Positions 29,834 through 50,820 of a stretch of DNA of 64,000 bases are shown piece after piece (the first letter of the stretch is position 1; each line of letters starts with the position of its first letter). The position numbers and the translations under genes were made by a program. Source of the DNA: Naegleria gruberi. Taxonomy: Eukaryota. Under the pieces are notes generated by a model. The model was given only the letters and a program-made list of their open reading frames with translations. It had not been told where the DNA came from and searched no databases. The stretch lies in assembly GCA_000004985.1 (NCBI GenBank), contig GG738876.1; one strand, 5' to 3'.

Positions 29834-32800
29834 TTACTGATTATATTCCAATAACTCATCTTGCAAAGTATATAATTGTTGAGCTAATTCTTCAATACTT
29901 GGTCTCTCCTTTGGATTGTGATCCCAACATCTTTTAATGAGCTTGGTCAACTCATACACAATAGCAAAATCAGCTGATTCATCCTCCATAAACATTTCAC
30001 ACCACTCCTCACACGAATCCAAAGATTCGAATGGTATAATTGGCCTTAAATTCTTTTCACAGACCATTCTAGATAACTTGTAAGGTGACATGTACTCTGG
30101 TTTAGTTTCCAATCCTAATTTTTCCAAAACTGAGGGAATTCCACTCATATACGGATCTCTCACTTCAAATAAGAGTTGCCACATGATTATTGACAGACTG
30201 TAAATATCGACAGCAGTTGCATTTTCTGGATCAATTGACTGAATATCATTCATTTCTGGACTCATGTAAAAAACTGATCCAATATTATTAGTAATTGAAT
30301 TTTTGGTTCCTTGTGATAATAATCTACTCAATCCAAAATCACAAACTTTACAATTTTCATTCGAATCTAATAGAATATTTTGTGGTTTCAAATCTCTATT
30401 TCAAAAAATTAAAAAATCTCAATTCAAAACTTGAACACACATACCTATGAATAATCTTTCTCGGTTTCAAATTGTGTAAATATTCCACACCATTCGAAAT
30501 GGAAATTAACATTTTAATCTTTTCCACAAGTGGAAGGGCCAATGTTTTGGATTCCAATTTTAAAATTACCTTATCCAAACTTTGTTCCAAACATTCCATG
30601 ACAATGTATCGTTTCGTTGGTGAGGTAGAAACTCCATAAAAATTGATAATATTTGGATGTCGGAGTTTGCTTAATAAAATTGCTTCCACTCTGAAATCTT
30701 CCTCTGAAATATTGACATTATTCAAATCAAAGACTTTGACAGCAACAATCATTCCAGACCACATGGTTTGATAGACACTCCCTACTCCGCCCTCACCCAA
30801 TCTTTTCATTGGTTTTTCCATTCCTAATTTTTGAAGTGGAATGATAAAATCATTTTCTTTGAGTTCCTCAGCAATTGGTTCCAAATGATACGAGTTGATA
30901 ATGAGTCTTTCATCCAATGCCAAGTCAACTTGAATAATCTTTCGTTGGGCTCTATTCTTCTTAATAAGTATGGAGCTGAAAAAGGTAATGGCCACAACGA
31001 GTGCAATGCAAAGGAATAGCACAGCAATGAAACTCACAATAAAGGCAATGATTTGTCCACCATCTTGACAATTATTTCCAGAATATCCAAAATTACATTC
31101 ACAATCTCCTGTAGTTTTGCAAACTCCTCTTCCATAACAAACATGTGGATCCTTTTCGCTGATTCCAGAACATGAACTGAGCTGGCACTCCTCTCCAATG
31201 AAACTTCCCTTACATGAGCACTTGTTTCTCGAGGTGCAAATTCCACGTTCGCTTCCTCCACACGAATCTCCAATTAGTTTGGAGAAACAAATTGCATTTT
31301 CACATTGGAAACCATAATAACCATCATTGCATCGACATGAATCAGGTTCACTACAGGTTCCATTATTATTGGAGCATACTTGAGAATTGTTTGCTGTAAT
31401 TCCATAACAAATTGGAATTTCACATTGACTGCCCGTGTATTTTTCTTGACATTGACACTTGTTTGGTGACACACAAGCACCATGGTTGTGACAAACTGAC
31501 AAGGTTTCATTATCAGGAATCCCAAAGCATACAGCCAAACATTCAGTTCTATTAGAATCTAATTGATAACCCTCATTACACATTGGAGTTAATCTCATAA
31601 TGGTATCGTACAATGCAAGGTAAATTGTGTTATCGCTAGTGACCTGAATATCTGAAAGGATGCCATCATGATTAACTGTTGTTCTAATTTTCCCTTTGGA
31701 AACAATTCTAAGCATATAATTAAGCGTGTCACCAATCACCAAGTCTCCATTACTAAGGAAGGAGACAGCTCTTGGGTAGGATAATTTAACTTGTAGAGGA
31801 TCAGTGCCAGAACTGAAACCTTCCTCTCCAGATCCAGCAATTGTAGAAATTTCATAATGATCATCTTTTTTAGTCAACTTTCTAATACGATGATTACTCG
31901 TGTCTGAAAAAACAATATCCTTAGTTATTGGATTTATGGCTAATCCAGTTGGTGATCTTAGATTTGCTAAAATACCAATGCTGCCATCACCTGAAAATCC
32001 AAACTTTCCAGTTCCAGCTATTGTTCGAATTATACCACTATTATCAACTAATCTTATTCGATTCGTATTCGATTCGGATATTACCAGTTCATTATTGGAT
32101 GTTTTAACCATTTTAGCTGGATAAACATTAGCATTATAAACACTCATTCCATCACCAATTCCTCCAACTGGGGTTAACAATAGAGTGTCCAACTTTCGTA
32201 TATTATTATTCTCTGTAAAGAAGAAACTTCCATCACTTACTATTGAGCAAACACCAAATGGAAATCCAATAGTATTGCCATCATCATTAGAAACCTTTGA
32301 ATAAATGAATCCAGTCCGTGAAACAAAACGAATCCTATTATTATACGAATCTGCAATTAAAAAACCATTGGAATGAACTGTTATCGATGTTGGATTGAAT
32401 AATTTGGCTGTTTTAGCCGTAATTCCATCTCCATTATATCCTGCCACAGTTGTCCCAGCCAAAGTACTAATTGTTCCTTCAGGAATCAAAAAACCTTGAG
32501 AATCTTGTTTCACATTTTGATATTTCACCTGGAGAATTCGATGATTTGATGAATCTATATGAAAAAAAATTGAACAAATTAGAATTGAATGAGACTTGAA
32601 TGAAATAACATACCAGCAATGTAAATATCATAAAAAAAGAATCCATTTCGTATAACTTCAATTCCAGAAGGTGAATTGAGCTCTGTTTGTCTTGGATTAT
32701 TTTCCACAATGGTAGAACCTGACGAACCCAATCCAACAAGTGTAGAAACTGTGGATGCATTGGTGTAGGGCACAATTCTAACTCTATGATTAAGGGTATC

Positions 32801-34936: not shown

Positions 34937-36867
34937 TTAGTCGATATCCACATCTTCAAACTTTGGTTGAGCTGTGCTCGAAGTAGTTGGTCCACTGCCA
35001 CTAGAAGGGCCATAACCTCCTGGTGTTTGTTGTTGTTGAGCTTCTCCTTGATATAATTTGGTGATAATTGGAGCACATTTGTTTTCCAAATCCTTCTTTC
35101 TTCTTTCAATTTCGTCCTTTGAGGCCATGTTATTATTGTCAATCCAATTCATTGCTTCTTCACAGGCCTTCTTGATGACATTCTTGTCAGATTCTGAGAG
35201 TTTACCAGATAGATTTGGATCTTCTGTTGTTGATTTCATTTGGTAGGCGTAGGATTCGAATTGATTCTTGGAATCAATCTTTTCTCTCATTTCCTTATCT
35301 TCTTGTTCCATGTCTTTGGCCTTTCTCAACATTTCTTCAATTTCCTCCTTACTGAGACGACCCTTCTCATTGGTAATTGTAATGTTTTGAGTTTTACCAG
35401 ATGAAGTGTCCTTTGCTCCAACTTTCATGATACCATTAGAGTCAATTTCAAAGAAAACTTCAATCTTTGGTACGCCTCTTGGTGCAGGTGGAATTCCTTC
35501 CAAATTGAATTTACCCAACAAGTGATTATCCTTTGTTAATGTTCTCTCACCTTCAAAAACTTGAATAGTGACAGCTGTTTGATTATCAGAGTAGGTGGTA
35601 AACATTTCTGATTTCTTACATGGAATAGTTGTATTTCTCTCAATCAATTTAGCCATTACACCACCAGCAGTTTCAATACCCAAACTCAAAGGAGTCACAT
35701 CAATCAAAAGTACCTTAGTTTCCTTACCAGTCAAAACACCAGCTTGAACAGCAGCACCATAAGCAACAGCTTCATCAGGATTGATGGACTTACAGAGCTC
35801 CTTACCATTGAAGAATTCCTTAAGCATTTCTTGAACCTTTGGAATACGAGTTGAACCACCGACCAAGACAACATCATCAATTTGTGCCTTGTCCAAACCA
35901 GAATCTTGGAGAACCTTCTTAACTGGTTCGAAACAATTTCTGAACATATCCATATTCAATTGTTCGAATTTGGCTCTAGTCATTGGAATGTCCAAGTCAA
36001 TTCCATCAACAATTGAATCAACATTGATAGTTGAAGTGGAGGCAGATGACAAGTTTCTCTTTGTTCTTTCACAAGCAGTTCTCAATCTTCTCAAAGCTCT
36101 TGGATTATCATGAACGTCTCTTCTATACTTTCTCTTGAATTCTGTACAGCAGTATTCCACCATTCTTGAATCGAAATCTTCACCACCCAAGTGAGTATCA
36201 CCAGCAGTAGCTTTCACCTCAAAAACACCATCTTCAATATTTAGGATTGATACATCAAATGTACCACCACCCAAATCGAAAATCAAAACATACTTCTCAT
36301 CCTTCTTATTTAACCCATAGGCAATTGCAGCAGCTGTTGGTTCATTGATAATTCTCAAAACTTCTAGACCTGCAATTTGACCTGCATCCTTAGTGGCTTG
36401 TCTTTGAGAATCGTTAAAGTAAGCTGGAACAGTGACAACTGCCTTTTGGACCTTCTTTCCAACGTATTGTTCTGCAATATCTTTCATTTTGGTCAAGACC
36501 ATGGATGAGATTTGTTCTGGTGTGAAAATATGAGATTCTCCCTTGTACTCAACTGAATATATGGTTTATCATCTCCTTTGGTAATTACTTTGAAAGGCCA
36601 ATGCTTAATATCATTCTGAACACTTGTATCACTGAATTTTCTACCAATCAGACGTTTAGCATCAAACACTGTATTATGAGGATTCATTGCAACTTGATTT
36701 TTGGCAGCATCACCAATCAAACGTTCATCATCGGTGAATGCAACATAGGAGGGTGTAGTTCTATTACCTTGATCATTGGGTATAATCTCTACATTATCTC
36801 CCATATAAACACCAACACATGAATAAGTAGTACCCAAGTCAATTCCAATTGCTCCGTCAAATGACAT
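34937..36867 (-). CDS. Hsp70 family chaperone (cytosolic type) with an apparent 1-bp frameshift near 36553
   Basis: ORFs 36493..36867 ([20 protein letters not shown]...) and 34937..36502 (...[12 protein letters not shown]...) together cover a complete Hsp70. The frame breaks inside the conserved KPYIQ|VEYKGE segment. The sequence reads ATTCAGTTGAGTAC where ATTCAGGTTGAGTAC is expected, so one base is missing at plus position ~36553. The C-terminus ends FEDVDID (EEVD-like). This is either a pseudogenised paralogue or a sequence error. Confidence 0.7.
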
Positions 36868-37724: not shown

Positions 37725-38815
37725 GTATCCACTGTAATTCTTTTCAAATGAGGAAAGTTGTTAATAAGGCTCTTCTTCACTTCGAATAGAATATCATTAT
37801 GACTAATATCGAGTGTTGTCAAGTTTGATAATTTGAATAGAGGCATTGGAAGTTTGATATTCCAATCCAATTCATTGCATCTAATATTTAGAAAGGTTAA
37901 ATTGCCAAGATTATTACTATTGGCAATATGTTTCAGTGAATCATTTCCAATAGAATTATATTCCAAATGTAAATTCCTCAAATTACTCATTAACTTGCTA
38001 TCCACAATTGACTTGACTCCATTTGAACCAATATTATTATGACTCAAATCCAGAAAAGTCAATCCATTAAGAATTTTAGCTTCTGAAATGAATTTGGCAC
38101 CTTTACAATCAATTCTATTGCAAGATAAATTGAGATGAGTTATGTGAGATAATTTTCCATCCACAAGATATTTGAGACCCTCACTCTCAATATGATTATA
38201 CTTTAGCAGAAGGGTCTGAACAGAGACAAGTCCATCACTGCTCATCAGAGCTTTCATTCCCTCAATTCCCAACATGTTATGATTCAAATCCAAATACGTG
38301 AGTTTATCAAATGATCCTCCAGATAATAATTTTGCACCCTTCTCCTCAATTTGATTTCCACCCAATTTCAAACTATTTAATTGTTTTGCCAATCGACTCA
38401 TACTAATACTCTCAATAATATTGTCATCAATTTTCTCAAAATACAACCGATAGAAATCTGATAAATTCAATTCATTCAAACTGTCCCAAGTATCGTTATC
38501 ATCATCATTCCGAAATATTTCCATCAATTGTTTGTTTACTTCTTCGGGTTGATTTTTAGAGAAGAAACACAGCTTTTCAATATATTTAAATTTCCCCAAT
38601 TTACAACATGAAACAAAAGATTCCAAATCATCATCACATGATACAATACTCGTTCTTGTCCGCATTACTAACTGATTCCAATATTTGCAAACCAAAGATA
38701 AGCTTGCAAATAATTCCTTCCCATCCAAATATCGGAATATATGAATAGTAAATAATTCAGAGGGCAAGTGATGTATCGTTGAGAGTTGTTGATCGTAATG
38801 AATGAAAACTACCAT
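37721..38815 (-). CDS. F-box/LRR-repeat protein (RNI-like), 364 aa
   Basis: F-box at residues ~16-50 (LPSELFTIHIFRYLDGKELFASLSLVCKYWNQLV). It is followed by about 8 RNI-type leucine-rich repeats (LDLSHNNIGSNGVKSI...). Single exon. Confidence 0.8.
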   Translation of the reverse strand: MVVFIHYDQQLSTIHHLPSELFTIHIFRYLDGKELFASLSLVCKYWNQLVMRTRTSIVSCDDDLESFVSCCKLGKFKYIEKLCFFSKNQPEEVNKQLMEIFRNDDDNDTWDSLNELNLSDFYRLYFEKIDDNIIESISMSRLAKQLNSLKLGGNQIEEKGAKLLSGGSFDKLTYLDLNHNMLGIEGMKALMSSDGLVSVQTLLLKYNHIESEGLKYLVDGKLSHITHLNLSCNRIDCKGAKFISEAKILNGLTFLDLSHNNIGSNGVKSIVDSKLMSNLRNLHLEYNSIGNDSLKHIANSNNLGNLTFLNIRCNELDWNIKLPMPLFKLSNLTTLDISHNDILFEVKKSLINNFPHLKRITVDT

Positions 38816-39111
38816 GATGATGACACTGCTGTTTTGTTATTTGTATTTTTTTTGATTGGATTTCAATTCGGAATTGTATTATTAAATGAGCTTGTCAACT
38901 AATAGTAAGCAATTTTGGTATTAATTCTTTTACAATATTCGTAAATCAATAATTAGAAATAAGAAAAATATCACACGAGATCTACTAATTCATCAAGTTC
39001 TTTAAGAAATCCCAACAAGTTCTCATCCTAAAAACACGTTTTTGATTACAATTAATATTATTACAAATAAAGGCCTTAATAAAATAATTTAAAAATAATA
39101 TCTAAAAAAAA

Positions 39112-39969
39112 ATGGCAACAATTCAACAAGAACGTGAAATGATGTCGGTTGCTTCTCCTTCCGATGATCATCACAATAGTGCGGATGATGAGCAACAGGA
39201 ATTACCTTCACAACAAAATAATTATACAAATAATAATATTAACAAGGAAAATGTTGATTTGGAATCACAATTAGAACCATTGAAGGGTCCTGGTTTTTAT
39301 CCACAACAAGAAATTAATTGGCAAGCTATTGGAAACTTTTCGGGTATTGAACATCAAGTGAGACACAAGTTGAGAAGTATTTATTTAATTTTGGCTGGTA
39401 CAGTTTTGATGAGTACGTTGGGATCTGGTTTGGCAGTTTATTTCAGATTAGAACCATCTCTTCTTTATACAATTGTTGCTTTCGGATTTATGATTTATGT
39501 GGCAGTTACGAGCTCTTTGGCTGGATTGTTATTATTTGGTTTGACTATTGGATTGGAAATTGGACCTGCAATCAGAATGATTATGGAAGAAATTGATCCA
39601 AACCTTCCAATATTTGCTCTTGGAGCAACTTGTGTAGTATTTGCATGTTTTTCAGTTTTTGCTCATTTTTCTAAACGTAGAAGCATGCTGTACTTGGGTG
39701 GTATTTTGTCAAGTTTCCTCTCAGTTTTAATGTGGACTCTTTTATTTAGTTTCGTATTTGGAAGTTTTGCACTGTATGATATTTTGTCAATTTATGGAGG
39801 ACTTTTCATGTTTTGTGGTTTCATTGTTTTTGACACACAGCTCATTATTGAAAGACTACATGCTGGTGACAATGACCTCGTTAAAATGAGTTATCAATTA
39901 TTCATTGATTTCATTGCAATCTTTTTGAGAATTCTCATCATTTTGGCTAAGAGAAAATCAAAGGATTAA
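39112..39969 (+). CDS. Bax inhibitor-1 / TMBIM family membrane protein (Lifeguard/GAAP-like)
   Basis: 285 aa with 7 predicted TM helices. The C-terminal signature ...YQLFIDFIAIFLRILIILAKRK is typical of the TMBIM/BI-1 family. Confidence 0.75.
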   Translation: MATIQQEREMMSVASPSDDHHNSADDEQQELPSQQNNYTNNNINKENVDLESQLEPLKGPGFYPQQEINWQAIGNFSGIEHQVRHKLRSIYLILAGTVLMSTLGSGLAVYFRLEPSLLYTIVAFGFMIYVAVTSSLAGLLLFGLTIGLEIGPAIRMIMEEIDPNLPIFALGATCVVFACFSVFAHFSKRRSMLYLGGILSSFLSVLMWTLLFSFVFGSFALYDILSIYGGLFMFCGFIVFDTQLIIERLHAGDNDLVKMSYQLFIDFIAIFLRILIILAKRKSKD

Positions 39970-40482
39970 CCTGTAAATAACCCATTGTAAATAAACTCTA
40001 ACCTCTTCATTAATTCTCAGGCAGAGTCGTCTTTTCTTAGCAAATGAACATGTTAGTTGCACAAGGATAATTAATTGAGTTCTATTGCATTCTTATGAAT
40101 ATTTTTGAATATATGAGATTGTGTTGTTGGGTATTCAGTTGTTTGAATCTTTGGGAATGTAAGTGCCTTTTTTGTAACAAACGAGATTTGTAACCAGTGT
40201 TTCTAACAAACCTATCATAGGAGAAAATCTCTATTAATCCCTCTCAAAATAAAAAGCAACACAATTAAAACCTTGAAACATATGCACGACGACTCTAGTG
40301 CATACACTGGTATGCCGTGAGGTTTTCAAAGTTTAAAACTGGATACAAAATTGCACAAAAGAGCCAAATTAATAAATGCATTTTAATATTTATTTAACAA
40401 TTATTAATATTTAACTATTAAAACTGTCTAAACTTTATTCATCAATCCACACCAATAAGAAATTTTGATCCTAATAAAAATA

Positions 40483-41629
40483 ATGGCTTTTCATGGTCAT
40501 GTAATATTAATATTGGATGATAGTTTTACGGAGGGAATTTATTCAAGCTGGATGACTTGTTTTAATTCAATGAAAATTCAACATGCTATTAAATCCTTTC
40601 AAACAATAGCCTTGTTTGATTCGGAAGTTATAAAAGATGATCAAAATGTTGTTAATCTTCTTCCTCAACAAGGAATTGCAACTTGTGTGAAGTATGTACA
40701 AATAATATTAATAATAATTTTAATATTAATAATTGAAATCATTCATAAACAGACCCTATTATAATTGTTTGATATTTGAAAATCATATTAAGCCAATAAT
40801 TGAAAAAGTGGTGGATGGTTATGATGGATGCTTGGCTATTTTATGTAAAGGTATGTTTATTAGTGTGAGTTGTGGGAGATATTCTAATTGTATTAGGCGA
40901 TAGGAAACATAGGTTCTTGTATGTAATTAGCTCATTCACTTCCATTAATTCAAAAATAGAGGAGAAAATGACTTGGTATTTAAAAGTTTTGACTCTTTAA
41001 TTGAAATCTTGAAAAAGAGAAAAAAAGATTTTACACTAGGAATGGAATTGTATGCTATTTATGGAGATGAATTATATGATTCTTCTAAAAAATGGAATAG
41101 TTCTGATAGATTGATTAAAATAAGGGAATTTAGAGAAAATCCTGGCCACTTGAATTTATTGAATTGTGATAGAAAATCTGTAAACAATATTGAGGAAATT
41201 TGTAAGGAATTAGAGAATGCCTGTTTAAATAATCTAGCCTATATAACAGCATGTTCACTGACTAGCAGACGTTTAATATACGGATGTAGACTTTTTGTGG
41301 AACAGATAGAAGACAATTCTGTGAAAAAGAGCATGTTTGAAATATTTGATATACCAATTAGTGATCATCAAGAGGATAGACATTACATTAAATTACAAAG
41401 GTATCAAAAATGTCTCTGGGTTATTGCTCACACCATCGGGCGCAGGGAAAAAGAGAATATATCTTATATACCATACCGAGACTCAAAGCTTACCAGACTC
41501 ATGACGAACTACCTTGGTGGAAATTCATATTCAGCAATGATATTCGATAATTTTGAGGATATTAGGATTCTAAAGATGTTTGGTTCCATTAAAAACAATG
41601 CTTGCATCAACAAGAACTCTGATATTTGA
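40483..41629 (+). CDS. Degenerate kinesin-like motor-domain protein lacking catalytic motifs (pseudo-kinesin or pseudogene)
   Basis: Approximate structure join(40483..40691, 40753..40850, 40965..41629). The last intron needs a weak GAG acceptor, because the obvious TAG acceptor gives a stop after 12 codons. The C-terminal part keeps the kinesin neck-linker/alpha6 signature [21 protein letters not shown] and the overall motor order. The catalytic motifs are not conserved: the P-loop GQTGSGKT reads GCLAILCKG, switch I SSRSH reads SLTSRR, and switch II DLAGSE reads DIPISD. There is no stalk or tail. Confidence 0.4.
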
Positions 41630-42682
41630 AATTTCCATTCTTTAAGAATTGTCTCAAAAGGAATATTAACTTGTCCTAGGATGTTTTTGAAGATCAATAA
41701 AAGAAAGAGGAAGAACAAGATTGAGGATGATCAGGAAGTTGATCAAGAGGATGAAGGTCAAGATGAGAAGATGAGTGAAGAGAACCAACAGCAGCAATAC
41801 GAGGGGAATCCTAAAAGAGGAACAATCCCGCAACTATGGAAACACGTTTAAGAGAGGAGGAAAAGGATGATCCTATTTATTCCGTTCCTAATCTGTTTTG
41901 TTATTCACCTACTCGGGAAGCTTAGATCGCTCCTTAACTGATTAGTAATTCGAATAGGTATTTGCTTATGCGACCTAAAATTGTTGCATAATTTTCTCTC
42001 AGCACTTGGATTAAGAGTTGTAAGGATTTTCCATTATTAACTGCAAGTTGAACTAATAATATAAATATAGTTAAATTGACTATTAGTTCTTTATTGAGGT
42101 TAGTGTTTTCTAATATCCATCAAGAGGAAGAGATTCCTTTGAGGAATTGTTACCGAAATTAAGGAAAACAATTCTTATTGTGCACTTTACAAGCAAACAG
42201 ATTAACAAAACAGAACTTTGCCCAAAACGTAGTTCATTACCAAATCCAATCCTCACCATTTTAGTACGTGAACATTAATCAACGGTACTACACTTGCCAA
42301 GTACACAGCAAGTAAGCAAGGCAAGCAATCGCTTCCTTCTTGTTTAACAGTTTGTATAAAAACTTATCAAGGTTTTCCTTAATGCCTTGCGTGAAAGAAG
42401 CAAACGTCTATTTAAAGTTCTTTTATGGTTTAATTCGGCCTTAATTGCTTGAATTTTAACAAGTCCAGCCATCAAAACACAAATAAGGTAAAGGTAATCA
42501 CATCATTACGATAGCAATAGCGATACAAAAAGAGCCAAACATTGGAGTGGGTTTGCCTTCGAATCATTTGGCATTTTCTAAGTGCTCTCACAAAAAGAAA
42601 CTCCTCACCATCACTACCTCAGTTTCCCTTCCTCAATACTACTACTACTGCTGGCACTACAATCAATATAATCAAAGGCCTC

Positions 42683-43729
42683 ATGTCTATAAATTCCTCA
42701 ATAGTAAATTCTGCTGTTGTTGACAGTCCTCCTCGTCGTTGTGTTGATTCTCCCTCTTCATCTACCACATCAATATCAACATATACCGATAATAGTGATG
42801 AGAATAACTGCTTATTTCTCCCTCTTCGACCATCTCCAACTAGTCCACCTCAAAAATCTCAAGAGCAGCATCATGTTGAACCACATGCAAATAACAATTC
42901 CTCAACTGTTATAGAAATATCGGATGCTGCTACCCCAAACATGATTGTTTCTTCTCCACATCTTGAACCATGTAAATCTAGCTCATCACTCAATAGTACA
43001 ACAACAACATCAAGTAGTGGAACCATTTCATCTCAACAAGTTGGGCATGCCGAAGCAAGCAGTACACTAGCAGCAACATCTTTCCTTACATTCACTCCTC
43101 AGAATGCAGAAATCATCAAGCCAAAACGAACCAACAAGGCATGCACAGCTTGTAAATCTGCTCACAAAAAGTGCTCAAATACACGACCATGCACAAGGTG
43201 CATTTCCTTAAACAGAGAGGACAAGTGTGTAGACATGGACTCTGGGAGAAAACGAGGCAGGAGGGCTAATACACCTCGATCTGGAGGGTTACTAGTACAT
43301 AATTATGATCCCCATAATCCTTTTGTGTCTGGAAAGCCAAATACAGTTGTGTTTTCATTGCAACATGCAATTAATGAGGATCCTGGGAGCCATCATAAAC
43401 CATCCAAAAAGGTAAAACAAATTCCAACCTTACATGCTCCTGACATGTCCAATAATAATAATCATCATGCAACAAATGAACCCATAGGGCATGTAGATGT
43501 ACCACATGCTACTAACATGTTAAATCACACAAACATGCTTTATCCAACCTCTCATCATTTTTCAACACCATCTCATCATACTGATAATTTATCAACACCA
43601 TATCAGCATGCATCTCATTCTACCTCATCAACAATTCAAACAAGTCAAAAAACTCTTCCATCCATTAATGAATTAACAGAATGCAAAAATATTCTGTCGA
43701 ATTCTCAATCAGTTTTTTACCATCAATAA
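42683..43729 (+). CDS. Zn(II)2Cys6 binuclear-cluster (GAL4-type) DNA-binding protein, S/T/H-rich
   Basis: The track ORF starts at a TTG; the first ATG is at 42683. CTACKSAHKKCSNTRPCTRCISLNREDKC fits the CX2CX6CX5CX2CX8C pattern. It is followed by the basic KRGRRANTPRSG segment and has low-complexity flanks. Confidence 0.65.
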   Translation: MSINSSIVNSAVVDSPPRRCVDSPSSSTTSISTYTDNSDENNCLFLPLRPSPTSPPQKSQEQHHVEPHANNNSSTVIEISDAATPNMIVSSPHLEPCKSSSSLNSTTTTSSSGTISSQQVGHAEASSTLAATSFLTFTPQNAEIIKPKRTNKACTACKSAHKKCSNTRPCTRCISLNREDKCVDMDSGRKRGRRANTPRSGGLLVHNYDPHNPFVSGKPNTVVFSLQHAINEDPGSHHKPSKKVKQIPTLHAPDMSNNNNHHATNEPIGHVDVPHATNMLNHTNMLYPTSHHFSTPSHHTDNLSTPYQHASHSTSSTIQTSQKTLPSINELTECKNILSNSQSVFYHQ

Positions 43730-43758
43730 CATATGCATGCATTTCAAAGTATTTTTGC

Positions 43759-44904
43759 TTAATCAACCATATCAAAACTCTTTGAATTTTGCTGCTTGGA
43801 AACAAATCTCTCCTCATCGAACCATGTAATGGAATTATAATTTTCCATAGTTTTCATTGGAAATTCTTCAAATTGAGCAACATCATCGAAAACAACCCTA
43901 GTCTTTCCTGATTTTTCAACTCTAATTTCAATATCAAAATTTGCAAATGTACCACTGAATATTACTACATCCTTGCTCATGTCAAAAAGTTCTGTGAGTT
44001 TCTTGGAAATTTCGCATGAATATGAAAATGCATACCATATCTTGGCTTGTTCCAAAAGTGACTGGTGGAAATTCTTTCTTTCAAATACATTCCAATCATT
44101 CCAACCAATGAATTGTCTAAAATTTTTAGCATCCTTTCCAGAACATTGAGAGTATTCATCCAAAAGATAATTGATATATTTTTGAATAGCTTCTCTAGCT
44201 CTATTCAGGCATGTGTATCTCACAAAGAGTGCATATCTTTCTGGCTTGTCCATTGGAGAAAAGAGGAATTTACCTTTCGAATTTCTATCATATTTCAATT
44301 CTGGTGGAATAATTTCCCTTCCTTCCTTTTCCACAGAAAATTTCACTCTTCTCGAATCTTCCTCATCTTCCATTTCCTCTTGCTGTTGAGAAGAGTCCAT
44401 AAAATCACTCGTCCCAACATCAATCCTAAGCTTTCTATAAAAATACAATTCATTTTCCAATTCGTATTGCTCCTTGAATTTTGCAGAGAACTTTTCCAAC
44501 ACAAAATCTTGCCACGACTTGGAAACATAAACCATACACTGCAACAAATCTTTCAATTCCAAAAATTGGCTAATCAAATTCATTATCAATGAATTCTCCA
44601 AATATTCATTCCAATTAGCATCCACATATATCGAATTTGCAATTATTTTGTACGAATCCTTCTTCTCTCCAACATTTCTCCTAGTTGAAAATTGATTAAA
44701 AGCAATCTTTTGATTTCTTGATGATGTATCAGTCTCATTCTTGGCCGAAAGGATAGATCCCTTCCCAATGACCTTCCGATTACTAACCCTCTTCTTCTCA
44801 TTCCTATCTTGTTGCTGGTGATGAGAAACGATCAACATTCCCTCACCATCATCCAACTCAATGAGTGCAGGCATTTTTTTGCTATTCGGAAATTGTTTTC
44901 TCAT
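43759..44904 (-). CDS. Hypothetical protein (381 aa)
   Basis: ATG-initiated single-exon ORF with an acidic central stretch and no recognisable domain. Confidence 0.5.
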   Translation of the reverse strand: MRKQFPNSKKMPALIELDDGEGMLIVSHHQQQDRNEKKRVSNRKVIGKGSILSAKNETDTSSRNQKIAFNQFSTRRNVGEKKDSYKIIANSIYVDANWNEYLENSLIMNLISQFLELKDLLQCMVYVSKSWQDFVLEKFSAKFKEQYELENELYFYRKLRIDVGTSDFMDSSQQQEEMEDEEDSRRVKFSVEKEGREIIPPELKYDRNSKGKFLFSPMDKPERYALFVRYTCLNRAREAIQKYINYLLDEYSQCSGKDAKNFRQFIGWNDWNVFERKNFHQSLLEQAKIWYAFSYSCEISKKLTELFDMSKDVVIFSGTFANFDIEIRVEKSGKTRVVFDDVAQFEEFPMKTMENYNSITWFDEERFVSKQQNSKSFDMVD

Positions 44905-49287: not shown

Positions 49288-49842
49288 ACCGAATCGATCA
49301 AAACCCCAATCCTTACTACCTTCAAAAATTGAAATAATCACAAATTACTTATTGAGATTATTTAATGATACCAAAATTATTACATTACATTGAATAAATT
49401 TGGTATCATTACGATACACTATTTACATTATTAAAAAGTTTTTTATTGATATCACTAAGGTTGTTTCCTTCTTGATATGTGTCAAAGTTGGAGTCAAGTC
49501 CTCTTTAACTCGTAGCATTGTGGTGGCCTTCCAATTTCATAAGATGATAAATATAAGGAATTTCTTTGGTTGACTTTGTACTCTTGTGTTCACACTACCG
49601 AATTTAATTCAAATTAGTTGTGCATTGGAAAAATTGCCAGTTGTACAATTTCTGAGAAACTCCCAAACACCCTTGTTTGGCGAGATGAAAACTGTTCAAG
49701 CACAGGCTACACAACCAAACTCCAAAACTTACATTTTCGATCATGTTCTTCTCTGTTCTCCGTTTACAATCTCAAAAACTACAACAACAAATGGAAATAA
49801 ATTTAAGGTGTGTGCATAACCAAATTGACTATACGAAAAAAA

Positions 49843-50820
49843 ATGATTTCAAAGGTGGCAATTCTTGCCTTGCTTTTTGCATGTTGCATGTTGATGATTG
49901 CTTTTACTCAAGCAACATCACCTGCTGGTTTGAGATACAGATATGTTGAAAATTTGAAGGAGGAAGAATTGGCTGATGAAGTTTTTGATCTTCTTGCTGA
50001 TAAGCTTGCTCATGTAGTTTCATCTAGTCAATCTCGTACTGGTTCTTACAATCCTGATACCAAGTCTCATGGAAAGGCTTTTGTTGTTACTCCAGGCATG
50101 AAAGGTGGAAACTATAGAACTCATTCTGATAAAGCATTTGTCATGACATCTGGCATGAGAGGTGGAAATTACAGAACAAACTCTGATATTAAAGCCTTTG
50201 TTATGACTCCAGGCATGAGAGGTGGAAATTACAGAACCAGTTCTGACAAGGCATTTGTCATGACATCTGGCATGAGAGGAGGTAACTATAGAACAAACTC
50301 TGATATTAAAGCCTTTGTTATGACACCAGGTATGAGAGGTGGAAATTACAGAACAAACTCTGATATTAAAGCATTCGTCATGACACCAGGTATGAGAGGT
50401 GGAAATTACAGAACCAGTTCTGATAAGGCATTCGTCATTACATCAGGAATGAGAGGAGGTAACTATAGAACAAATTCTGATATTAAAGCCTTTGTTATGA
50501 CACCAGGTATGAGAGGCGGAAATTACAGAACCAGTTCTGACAAGGCATTCGTCATGACATCTGGCATGAGAGGTGGAAATTACAGAACAAACTCTGATAT
50601 CAAAGCCTTTGTTATGACACCAGGTATGAGAGGAGGTAACTATAGAACCAGTGCTGATAAGGCATTCGTCATGACTTCTGGTATGAGAGGTGGAAACTAT
50701 AGAACTAATTCTGATAAGGTTGCTTATGAAGTAACTCCTGGAATGAGAGGTACAATTGGTCACACTACCTATAATCCAGGTACAGTTAACCATGGAAAGG
50801 CCTATGTTGTTAGAAAATAA
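49843..50820 (+). CDS. Secreted tandem-repeat protein: signal peptide plus 12 alternating 19/20-aa repeats KAFVMT[PS]GMRGGNYRT[NS]SD(I)
   Basis: The track ORF begins at a GTG; the first ATG is at 49843 and is followed by a signal peptide (MISKVAILALLFACCMLMIAFTQA). The DNA repeat unit is 57/60 bp over 50080-50760 with over 90% identity between units. The flanking units are degenerate (HGKAFVVTPGMKGG.. / HGKAYVVRK). Confidence 0.75.
   Translation: MISKVAILALLFACCMLMIAFTQATSPAGLRYRYVENLKEEELADEVFDLLADKLAHVVSSSQSRTGSYNPDTKSHGKAFVVTPGMKGGNYRTHSDKAFVMTSGMRGGNYRTNSDIKAFVMTPGMRGGNYRTSSDKAFVMTSGMRGGNYRTNSDIKAFVMTPGMRGGNYRTNSDIKAFVMTPGMRGGNYRTSSDKAFVITSGMRGGNYRTNSDIKAFVMTPGMRGGNYRTSSDKAFVMTSGMRGGNYRTNSDIKAFVMTPGMRGGNYRTSADKAFVMTSGMRGGNYRTNSDKVAYEVTPGMRGTIGHTTYNPGTVNHGKAYVVRK

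What the first reader, a model, noticed from the sequence alone, without database searches (positions are those of the whole stretch)
40483..41629. Kinesin motor-domain homologue that has lost its P-loop and switch I/II motifs (pseudo-kinesin or decaying pseudogene)
The encoded protein keeps the order and several diagnostic blocks of a kinesin motor (…LGMELYAIYGDELYD~SYLEIYNEKIRDLL, LKIRE, and the neck-proximal [21 protein letters not shown]~[21 protein letters not shown]). Every catalytic element is not conserved: GQTGSGKT is replaced by GCLAILCKG, SSRSH by SLTSRR, and DLAGSE by DIPISD. There is no stalk or tail. The last intron needs a weak GAG acceptor; the strong TAG acceptor terminates the frame. 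This is either an ATPase-dead kinesin-like scaffold of ~320 aa or a recently inactivated kinesin paralogue.
Basis: partly seen in the sequence, partly recalled or inferred. Interest (0 to 1): 0.55.

Follow-up and report, generated by a model that had tools for sequence, protein, structure and literature searches.

The report
Conserved ATPase-dead kinesin head in Naegleria
This stretch of the Naegleria gruberi genome holds a small gene, apparently missing from the annotation, for a stand-alone kinesin "motor head" that has lost everything needed to burn ATP but keeps part of the microtubule-binding surface; a distant relative has the same gene, so it is a working pseudo-motor and not a dying gene.

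Summary

Two points change. First, the "weak GAG acceptor" is an artefact. A 22-nt micro-exon (40897-40918) was missed. With it the gene has four exons, three GTATGT donors, CAG/TAG/TAG acceptors and a 332-aa product, and the Pfam match runs unbroken through the P-loop position. Second, the pseudogene alternative is refuted. A 1.5-kb contig from an unidentified AT-rich eukaryote (L003) carries a 46%-identical copy. It has the same three intron positions and phases (including a 16-nt micro-exon), the same missing motifs and the same stop position. dN/dS is about 0.34 at dS of about 1.4.

Retention is selective: L12/alpha5/L13 keeps 14 of 18 canonical conserved columns, the nucleotide motifs 6 of 20.

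Best reading: a monomeric, nucleotide-independent kinesin-fold protein. Microtubule or tubulin binding is inferred, not shown. No transcript evidence could be obtained. It is a new variant of a known kind (compare Vik1/Cik1 and trypanosome KIN-B).

The parts
40483..40691 (+). Exon 1 (codons 1-69 plus 2 nt). It is a divergent N-terminal region and the RxRP (N4) motif is absent.
   Evidence: First in-frame ATG after a stop, and the frame stays open for 70 codons (chance about 0.005). Coding potential is +0.22 bits/codon in frame and negative in the other two frames. There is no significant Pfam match on its own. The structure model is of low confidence here (pLDDT about 30). Only its last 9 codons can be compared with L003.
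40692..40752 (+). Intron 1 (61 nt, GTATGT...CAG, phase 2)
   Evidence: The same position and phase are seen in L003 (81 nt).
40753..40850 (+). Exon 2: KPYYNCLIFENHIKPIIEKVVDGYDGCLAILCK(G), corresponding to alpha1-beta3 up to the start of the former P-loop
   Evidence: Aligns to ...PL...V.EGYNATVFAYGQ of canonical kinesins. L003 encodes PYYFSWIYENHLSGMLEKVLEGYNASLALLC(G) at the same place.
40851..40896 (+). Intron 2 (46 nt, GTATGT...TAG, phase 1)
   Evidence: The counterpart in L003 is 48 nt.
40897..40918 (+). Micro-exon (22 nt) encoding (G)DRKHRF(L), which occupies the position of the P-loop.
   Evidence: It is flanked by a TAG acceptor and a GTATGT donor and restores the frame into the strong TAG acceptor at 40959. 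L003 has a 16-nt micro-exon encoding (G)KRRC(L) in the same place and phase, and the L003 frame cannot be kept without it. With it the Pfam match extends from profile positions 102-302 to 58-302 in one stretch.
40919..40959 (+). Intron 3 (41 nt, GTATGT...TAG, phase 2)
   Evidence: The counterpart in L003 is 42 nt. A control intron of the same style (49 nt, GTATGT...TAG) splits HR|DLKPQN in the kinase gene at about 30396-30444 on the minus strand.
40960..41629 (+). Exon 4 (222 codons plus the stop at 41627-41629): alpha2 through alpha6 and the start of the neck linker
   Evidence: Open frame with a chance of about 6e-8. PF00225 match. 99% identical in a second N. gruberi-like strain, with 2 synonymous and 2 non-synonymous changes and no indels, while the 3' flank carries 8-, 20- and 1-nt indels.
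41249..41275 (+). Degenerate switch I: ACSLTSRRL in place of (T)NMNxxSSRSH
   Evidence: Ng keeps 3 of 8 conserved columns and L3 keeps 2 of 8.
41348..41365 (+). Degenerate switch II: DIPISD in place of DLAGSE. The rigor-mutation glycine (KIF5B G234) is Ile, or Phe in L003.
41465..41527 (+). Retained L12-alpha5-L13 block [21 protein letters not shown], a tubulin-contacting element of kinesins
   Evidence: Ng keeps 14 of 18 canonical conserved columns and L003 keeps 11 of 18. This is the most conserved block between the two orthologues. The second strain has K286N in DSK.
41588..41626 (+). End of alpha6 and start of the neck linker, IKNNACINKNSDI, followed by the stop. There is no coiled coil.
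   Evidence: Aligns to IKNkavvN of N-type kinesins. L003 ends at the equivalent place (IKNNPTKYEIA*), and a convergent gene ends 38 nt further on.

Best explanation
The window is Naegleria gruberi. Positions 40483-41629 (+) hold a four-exon gene (exons 40483-40691, 40753-40850, 40897-40918 and 40960-41629) encoding a 332-aa, 38.7-kDa protein that is a kinesin motor domain and nothing else.

Shown:
- It is a true homologue of N-type kinesin motors and is predicted to have their fold.
- The P-loop, switch I, switch II and RxRP motifs are all destroyed, so it cannot bind or hydrolyse ATP in the kinesin manner.
- It has no stalk or tail.
- The same architecture, with the same lost motifs, is kept intact in a copy only 46% identical from another organism. 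The gene has therefore been under purifying selection since the motifs were lost.

Inferred:
- The only canonical block that both copies keep almost intact is L12-alpha5-L13 (PYR[DN]SK[LI]TRL...LGG). In working kinesins this block contacts tubulin and lines the neck-linker pocket.
- The motor part is basic: the calculated pI is 8.3 for N. gruberi residues 71-332 and 9.1 for the L003 fragment.
- The most likely mode of action is therefore a monomeric, nucleotide-independent microtubule- or tubulin-binding module. It would act as a natural 'rigor-like' head, working as a static microtubule-associated factor or regulator in the spindle or the flagellar apparatus, and not as a motor.
For: Organism: two flanking ORFs are exact matches to N. 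gruberi EFC42948.1 and EFC42954.1.

Homology:
- PF00225 at 61.4 bits, E 9.7e-17, covering profile positions 58-302 of 327.
- A profile of the two copies against the PDB gives E 1.3e-16 to the KIF4 motor, and 113 kinesin chains score below 1e-6.
- AF2 model residues 71-324 average pLDDT about 85 over ten-residue blocks.
- Foldseek E 8e-19 to the CENP-E motor.

Dead active site:
[quoted passage not shown] The equivalents of KIF5B G85, T87, T92, S202, S204, H205, G234 and E236 are all replaced or deleted.
- No canonical motif is encoded in any frame within 38000-44000.

Gene model: consensus splice sites, a control intron of the same style, and a Pfam match made continuous by the micro-exon.

Selection:
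- The L003 copy has identical intron positions and phases, and the micro-exon lengths differ by 6 nt.
- 116 of 253 aligned codons are identical at the amino-acid level.
- NG86 gives dN 0.47, dS 1.38, ratio 0.34.
- The chance of a 222-codon open frame at this base composition is 6e-8.
- Strain polymorphism shows indels only outside the CDS.
- In-frame coding potential is positive.

Selective retention: L12+alpha5+L13 keeps 14 of 18 (Ng) and 11 of 18 (L3) conserved columns, including the equivalents of KIF5B R278, K281 and R284.
Against: - No transcript or protein evidence was available. Neither spliced product is in the 15-billion-protein collection.
- Microtubule binding is inferred from one conserved block only. 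The main tubulin-binding helix alpha4 and loop L11 are poorly conserved: 1 of 14 conserved columns in N. gruberi, 5 of 14 in L003, and L11 is shortened.
- A second N. gruberi-like strain carries K to N at the otherwise invariant Lys of DSKLTR. This may mean that contact is not under strong constraint.
- L12-alpha5-L13 also has a structural role, so its retention need not mean tubulin binding.
- In T. brucei KIN-B, an inactive motor domain failed to localise to the spindle (PMC10987093). A dead kinesin head does not have to bind microtubules.
- Exon 1 has no comparative support and is modelled with low confidence.
- The structure model used the 324-aa version without the micro-exon, together with an alignment of canonical kinesins. 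That alignment favours a kinesin fold.
- Only two species-level members were found, and the second organism is unidentified.
Confidence: 0.6

Rival explanations
1. It is a conserved dead kinesin head that does not bind microtubules. It would act as a protein-protein scaffold or as a regulatory subunit of another protein, for example by capping or partnering an active kinesin or a kinase. This would be analogous to the inactive motor of trypanosome KIN-B within the chromosomal passenger complex.
For: - alpha4 and L11, the main tubulin-contacting elements, are largely diverged.
- There is a K286N polymorphism in the DSK motif.
- New blocks not found in canonical kinesins are conserved between the two copies (DSS[KR][KE]WN, IYGCR[LV]FVEQ, FEIFD[IV]P). 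These could form a new interaction surface.
- KIN-B shows that dead kinesin heads can work off the microtubule (PMC10987093).
Against: - Unlike KIN-B, which lost many alpha4-L12 residues, this protein keeps L12-alpha5 almost intact in both copies.
- It has no coiled coil or other domain through which to dimerise with a partner.
- The motor part is basic (pI 8.3-9.1), which suits the acidic tubulin surface.
Confidence: 0.27
2. It is a decaying or very recently inactivated pseudogene of a kinesin paralogue.
For: - The locus has no protein model in the searched collections, although neighbouring N. gruberi genes do.
- All catalytic motifs are lost.
- Coding potential is lower than in neighbouring genes: 0.11-0.22 against 0.38 bits/codon.
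- There is a non-synonymous polymorphism at an invariant Lys.
Against: - The 332-codon frame is intact across four exons with consensus splice sites.
- The same degenerate motifs, intron phases and stop position occur in a copy diverged to dS of about 1.4, with dN/dS of about 0.34 and indels only in multiples of three.
- The chance of the open frame is about 1e-8 or lower per species.
- Indels between strains lie only outside the CDS.
Confidence: 0.05
3. It is still an NTPase that uses a non-canonical nucleotide site, or a canonical motor is encoded by exons that were missed.
For: The micro-exon peptide at the P-loop position is Gly- and Lys/Arg-rich (GDRKHR in Ng, GKRR in L003). Switch II Asp and one switch I Ser are kept.
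Against: - Neither copy has GxxxxGK[ST]. Switch I SSRSH, switch II G234 and E236, and R190 and N255 are all lost.
- A six-frame scan of 38000-44000 finds no canonical motif.
- The orthologue shows the same exon set.
Confidence: 0.03

Closest known systems
   Different: It has no P-loop, switch I, switch II or RxRP. L11 is shortened and there is a 10-residue deletion after beta8. It has no stalk, tail or coiled coil. It cannot be assigned to a subfamily: scores of 64 bits (kinesin-4), 55 (kinesin-5), 52 (kinesin-1) and 50 (kinesin-8) are too close to separate, and no phylogeny was run.
Vik1/Cik1 motor homology domains of budding yeast (partners of the kinesin-14 Kar3; PDB 2o0a, 4gkq)
   Same: A kinesin-fold domain without the elements needed to bind or hydrolyse ATP. 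The yeast domains nevertheless bind microtubules (PMC4338441). This is the working model proposed here.
Trypanosoma brucei KIN-B (an orphan kinesin of the chromosomal passenger complex, also from Discoba)
   Same: [quoted passage not shown] It comes from the same eukaryotic supergroup.
   Different: KIN-B also lost many alpha4-L12 tubulin-contact residues, carries coiled coils after the motor and pairs with KIN-A. The Naegleria protein keeps L12-alpha5 and has nothing after the neck linker.
Kinesin-11 (KIF26A/B) and engineered rigor kinesin mutants (for example G234A)
   Same: Kinesin heads without productive ATPase activity that stay bound to microtubules (my own knowledge, plus the rigor mutant cited in PMC10987093). 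In this protein the G234 equivalent is Ile or Phe.
   Different: KIF26 proteins are large and multi-domain and keep a recognisable, if atypical, nucleotide pocket. This protein is a 332-aa head with the pocket motifs erased.

Membership tests
Kinesin superfamily (motor-domain homologue, PF00225) | Significant match to the kinesin motor-domain profile above the curated threshold | tested here: met
   61.4 bits against a gathering score of 29.3, E 9.7e-17. The L003 copy scores 75.7 bits.
Kinesin superfamily (motor-domain homologue, PF00225) | Kinesin motor fold | tested here: met
Catalytically active kinesin motor | P-loop (N1) GxxxxGK[ST], typically GQTGSGKT | tested here: not met
   The position is filled by C-K-G-D-R-K-H-R (Ng) or C-G-K-R-R-C (L003). 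There is no such motif in any frame nearby.
Catalytically active kinesin motor | Switch I (N2) NxxSSRSH | tested here: not met
   CSLTSRRL in Ng and TSRFSAHV in L003. Ng keeps 3 of 8 conserved columns and L3 keeps 2 of 8.
Catalytically active kinesin motor | Switch II (N3) DxxGxE (DLAGSE) | tested here: not met
   DIPISD in Ng and DVPFKR in L003. The Gly and the Glu are lost in both.
Catalytically active kinesin motor | Microtubule-stimulated ATPase activity and motility | not testable with these tools
   Needs purified protein.
Microtubule-binding kinesin head | L12-alpha5 tubulin-contact motif ([9 protein letters not shown]; KIF5B R278, K281, R284) | tested here: met
   The conserved columns of L12+alpha5+L13 are kept at 14 of 18 (Ng) and 11 of 18 (L3). 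A K286N variant is present in a second strain.
Microtubule-binding kinesin head | L11-alpha4 tubulin-contact elements | tested here: inconclusive
   Conserved columns are kept at 1 of 14 (Ng) and 5 of 14 (L3). The helix is still predicted (H249-262 in the 324-aa numbering) and basic residues persist.
Vik1/Cik1-type motor homology domain | C-terminal kinesin-fold domain preceded by a coiled coil that heterodimerises with a kinesin-14 | tested here: not met
Unitary or decaying pseudogene | Frame disruptions, loss of splice signals, neutral evolution (dN/dS about 1) | tested here: not met
   The frame is intact with consensus splice sites. dN/dS is 0.34 at dS 1.38 against L003. Strain indels lie only outside the CDS.
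Kinesin-4/10 subfamily | Placement inside the clade in a kinesin phylogeny | not tested
   There is only a score ranking, with the KIF4 motor best at 64 bits. Naegleria is reported to lack kinesin-4/10 (bioRxiv 10.1101/2024.01.08.573270). This makes the question worth asking, but the branch is long and no tree was built.

The most novel reading that the evidence does not exclude
The Naegleria lineage maintains a free-standing, nucleotide-free kinesin head, a natural 'rigor' kinesin of 332 aa with no partner-binding coiled coil. It would bind microtubules constitutively through L12/alpha5. It may be specialised for one of Naegleria's two separate tubulin systems (the divergent mitotic tubulins or the flagellar tubulins), and it could be the degenerate remnant of the kinesin-4/10 family that Naegleria is otherwise reported to lack.
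Probability: 0.25. Interest if true: 0.6.

Novelty: new variant of a known kind. Interest (0 to 1): 0.45.

Why it matters
Non-catalytic kinesin-fold proteins are few. Vik1/Cik1 and trypanosome KIN-B are the main examples, and each taught something about how motor folds are reused. Those known cases are tethered to an active partner through coiled coils.

This one is a bare head that is still recognisable by sequence. It has lost every nucleotide motif yet keeps the L12-alpha5 tubulin-contact block, and it has been conserved across deep divergence. If it binds microtubules it would be a natural minimal "rigor" module. The organism uses separate tubulin sets for the spindle and the flagella, which makes it useful for asking what a kinesin fold does without chemistry.

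On the practical side, the locus seems absent from the N. gruberi protein set. Proteome-based kinesin inventories (for example bioRxiv 10.1101/2024.01.08.573270) would therefore have missed it. The 22-nt micro-exon also shows how a missed micro-exon can make a real gene look broken.

Tried and rejected
- More family members. An exhaustive phmmer run against 1.84 billion representatives found only P0001 (the same species) and P0005 before canonical kinesins. A profile search of 5.8 billion clusters gave the same result. Two metagenome scans, one by protein pattern and one with the degenerate DNA pattern for YGCR[LV]FVEQ, gave only chance matches.
- Identity of the L003 organism. Its neighbouring ORF has no homologue at E of 0.01 or better, and no paper mentions SRR25266757 or PRJEB11402.
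- Transcript evidence. Exact look-ups of the 324-, 332- and 338-aa spliced products and of the strain variant found nothing.
- Annotated gene calls around the locus. The neighbouring N. gruberi proteins are not in the contig index, so "unannotated" rests on the protein searches only.
- Structure of the 332-aa model. The afdb50 library was unavailable.
- Alternative exons encoding a canonical P-loop, SSRSH or DLAGSE: none in six frames of 38000-44000.
- ncRNA or tRNA in 39900-42700: none.
- A tail encoded after the stop. The same frame stays open for 73 more codons, but its coding potential is about 0, the second strain has 8- and 20-nt indels there, and L003 ends at the same point. This was rejected.
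- Intron-versus-exon identity as a control: uninformative in such short AT-rich introns.
- Subfamily assignment from score ranking: too close to call.

Full report
**What the window is.** The window is AT-rich (31-37% G+C) and gene-dense, with long ORFs and few introns. Two ORFs are exact matches to Naegleria gruberi proteins EFC42948.1 (39112-39969) and EFC42954.1 (52680-53702). The sequence is therefore N. gruberi nuclear DNA. The finding lies between a Bax-inhibitor-1 gene upstream and a Zn(2)Cys(6) gene downstream. Neither neighbour tells us anything about its function.

**Checking the observation.**
- The 324-aa product hits Pfam PF00225 (kinesin motor) at E 3.7e-16 and 59.5 bits, against a cut-off of 29.3.
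- It also hits 141 PDB kinesin chains, with KIF4 best.
- The quoted similarity blocks, the replacement of SSRSH and DLAGSE, and the lack of any stalk are all real.
- The homology is far beyond chance.

**A corrected gene model.** The orthologous contig (described below) showed why: a micro-exon lies in between.
- In N. gruberi the micro-exon is 40897-40918 (22 nt). It is preceded by ...attgtattag and followed by gtatgt.
- The gene then reads: exon 1 at 40483-40691, exon 2 at 40753-40850, the micro-exon at 40897-40918, and exon 4 at 40960-41629.
- The introns are 61, 46 and 41 nt. All three have GTATGT donors, and the acceptors are CAG, TAG and TAG.
- A clear intron of the same style (49 nt, GTATGT...TAG) splits HR|DLKPQN in a kinase gene elsewhere in the window.
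- The product is 332 aa. The micro-exon peptide (G)DRKHRF(L) sits exactly where the P-loop should be.
- With it the Pfam alignment becomes one continuous stretch over profile positions 58-302, instead of 102-302.
GCLAILCK corresponds to G(T)IFAYGQ.

**Is it alive or decaying?** An exhaustive phmmer search of 1.84 billion representative proteins found two close relatives.
- P0001 is a 218-aa ORF that is 99% identical. It comes from a metagenome (ERR1078381) and represents a second N. gruberi-like strain.
- P0005 is a 232-aa ORF that is 47% identical.

P0005 lies on a 1563-nt contig, L003 (Logan assembly of SRR25266757, 31% G+C). Reading that contig shows the same gene:
- the end of exon 1;
- an 81-nt intron in the same phase;
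- an exon 2 encoding PYYFSWIYENHLSGMLEKVLEGYNASLALLC(G);
- a 48-nt intron;
- a 16-nt micro-exon encoding (G)KRRC(L), without which the frame cannot be kept;
- a 42-nt intron;
- a last exon that ends at the equivalent position (IKNNPTKYEIA*), with a convergent gene ending 38 nt further on.

The L003 copy lacks the P-loop, SSRSH and DLAGSE just as N. gruberi does. Over 253 aligned codons, amino-acid identity is 46%. Third codon positions are the least conserved, and NG86 gives dN 0.47, dS 1.38 and a ratio of 0.34. At this base composition an open frame of 222 codons has a chance of about 6e-8.

Between the two N. gruberi-like strains the last exon carries four substitutions (two synonymous, two not) and no indel. 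The roughly 320 nt after the stop carry indels of 8, 20 and 1 nt. In-frame coding potential is positive for exons 1, 2 and 4 and negative in the other frames.

The catalytic motifs were therefore lost long ago, and the frame, the splice sites and the stop position have been maintained since. The pseudogene alternative is rejected. Missed canonical exons are also excluded, because no GxxxxGK[ST], SSRSH or DLAGSE is encoded in any frame of 38000-44000.

**What is kept and what is lost.** I then scored the columns that are at least 80% conserved among the canonical sequences.

| Region | Conserved columns | Kept in N. gruberi | Kept in L003 |
|---|---|---|---|
| P-loop + switch I + switch II | 20 | 6 | 5 |
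| L11 + alpha4 | 14 | 1 | 5 |
| L12 + alpha5 + L13 | 18 | 14 | 11 |

- The equivalents of G85, T87, T92, S202, S204, H205, G234, E236, R190, E250 and N255 are all gone in both copies.
- L11 is also shortened in N. gruberi.
- The retained L12-alpha5-L13 block includes the equivalents of R278, K281 and R284.
- The protein includes alpha6 and the IKN start of an N-type neck linker, then stops.
- New blocks absent from ordinary kinesins are shared by the two copies (DSS[KR][KE]WN, IYGCR[LV]FVEQ, FEIFD[IV]P).
- The motor part is basic. The calculated pI is 8.3 for N. gruberi residues 71-332 and 9.1 for the L003 fragment.

- It has pTM 0.74, with residues 71-324 confident and exon 1 at pLDDT of about 30.
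- The input alignment was made of kinesins. The model therefore confirms compatibility with the fold but is not independent proof.

**How it most likely works.**
- Shown: it is a conserved, stalk-less, kinesin-fold protein without any kinesin-type nucleotide site.
- Inferred: the one canonical surface that both copies preserve is L12-alpha5, which contacts tubulin in working kinesins, and the domain is basic. The best-supported mechanism is therefore nucleotide-independent binding to microtubules or tubulin as a monomer, a natural rigor-like head. I put this at about 0.45-0.5 within an overall confidence of 0.6 for the whole statement.
- Main rival (0.27): a dead head used as a protein-protein scaffold off the microtubule. 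Trypanosome KIN-B is a precedent. [quoted passage not shown] Points in favour of this rival are the weak alpha4/L11 conservation and the K286N strain variant in DSKLTR. Points against it are the retained L12-alpha5 block and the lack of any dimerisation element.

**Comparison with known systems.**
[quoted passage not shown] - Functionally it most resembles the non-catalytic motor homology domains of Vik1 and Cik1. These bind microtubules without an ATP site (PMC4338441).
- Its subfamily origin is open. KIF4 (kinesin-4) scores best at 64 bits, ahead of kinesin-5 (55), kinesin-1 (52) and kinesin-8 (50). A recent survey reports that Naegleria lacks kinesin-4/10 (bioRxiv 10.1101/2024.01.08.573270). 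That is a lead only, and no tree was built.

**Annotation status.** The protein collections hold the annotated N. gruberi proteome, as the two neighbouring genes show. They return no N. gruberi model for this locus. The only entry is the bacterial-style 218-aa ORF from a metagenome. That survey identified kinesins by PF00225 matches in predicted protein sets and would have missed the gene. This is an inference, because I could not read the genome's own annotation.

**Limits.**
- There is no expression evidence.
- Only two species-level members are known, and one is from an unidentified organism.
- Exon 1 has no comparative support.
- dS is near saturation, so the dN/dS value is approximate.
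- Microtubule binding is not tested.

**Verdict.** This is a real, conserved, ATPase-dead, head-only kinesin homologue, with a corrected four-exon structure. It is a new variant of a known kind and of moderate interest (0.45).

Noticed in passing
window about 36550-36556, minus strand (Hsp70 gene spanning roughly 36870-34937): The N-terminal part of an Hsp70 gene ([20 protein letters not shown]...KGDDKPYIQ) and the rest of it ([24 protein letters not shown]..., PF00012 at 667 bits) are in different frames that overlap on the same nucleotides. The DNA reads ATT CAG TTG AG where ATT CAG GTT GAG is expected. This is an apparent 1-nt deletion and not an intron. It could be an assembly error, a very recent pseudogene or a frameshift site.
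   Followed up: partly
window 41630-41851, plus strand: After the stop codon of the kinesin-like gene the same frame stays open for 73 more codons of charged, low-complexity sequence (KRKRKNKIEDDQEVDQEDEGQDEK...). Coding potential is about 0, and the second strain has 8- and 20-nt indels here. It is most likely 3' UTR or intergenic DNA and not a lost tail.
   Followed up: yes
window 41486-41488 (codon 286) and 41561-41563 (codon 311), compared with L001/L002: A metagenome-derived strain (ERR1078381) that is 99% identical carries K286N, in the otherwise invariant Lys of the kinesin DSKLTR motif, and I311V. It also carries two synonymous changes in the last exon.
   Followed up: partly
window 49810-50820, plus strand: An ORF with a signal-peptide-like start, followed by about a dozen tandem copies of a repeat of roughly 17-18 residues (KAFVMTPGMRGGNYRT[NS]SD[I]). 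It has no meaningful Pfam match.
   Followed up: no
window 42542-43729, plus strand: The ORF has a fungal-type Zn(2)-Cys(6) binuclear cluster domain (PF00172, 24.4 bits, just above the cut-off) in a heterolobosean amoeba. It is flanked by long Ser/Thr/Asn/His-rich low-complexity sequence.
   Followed up: partly
   Followed up: no
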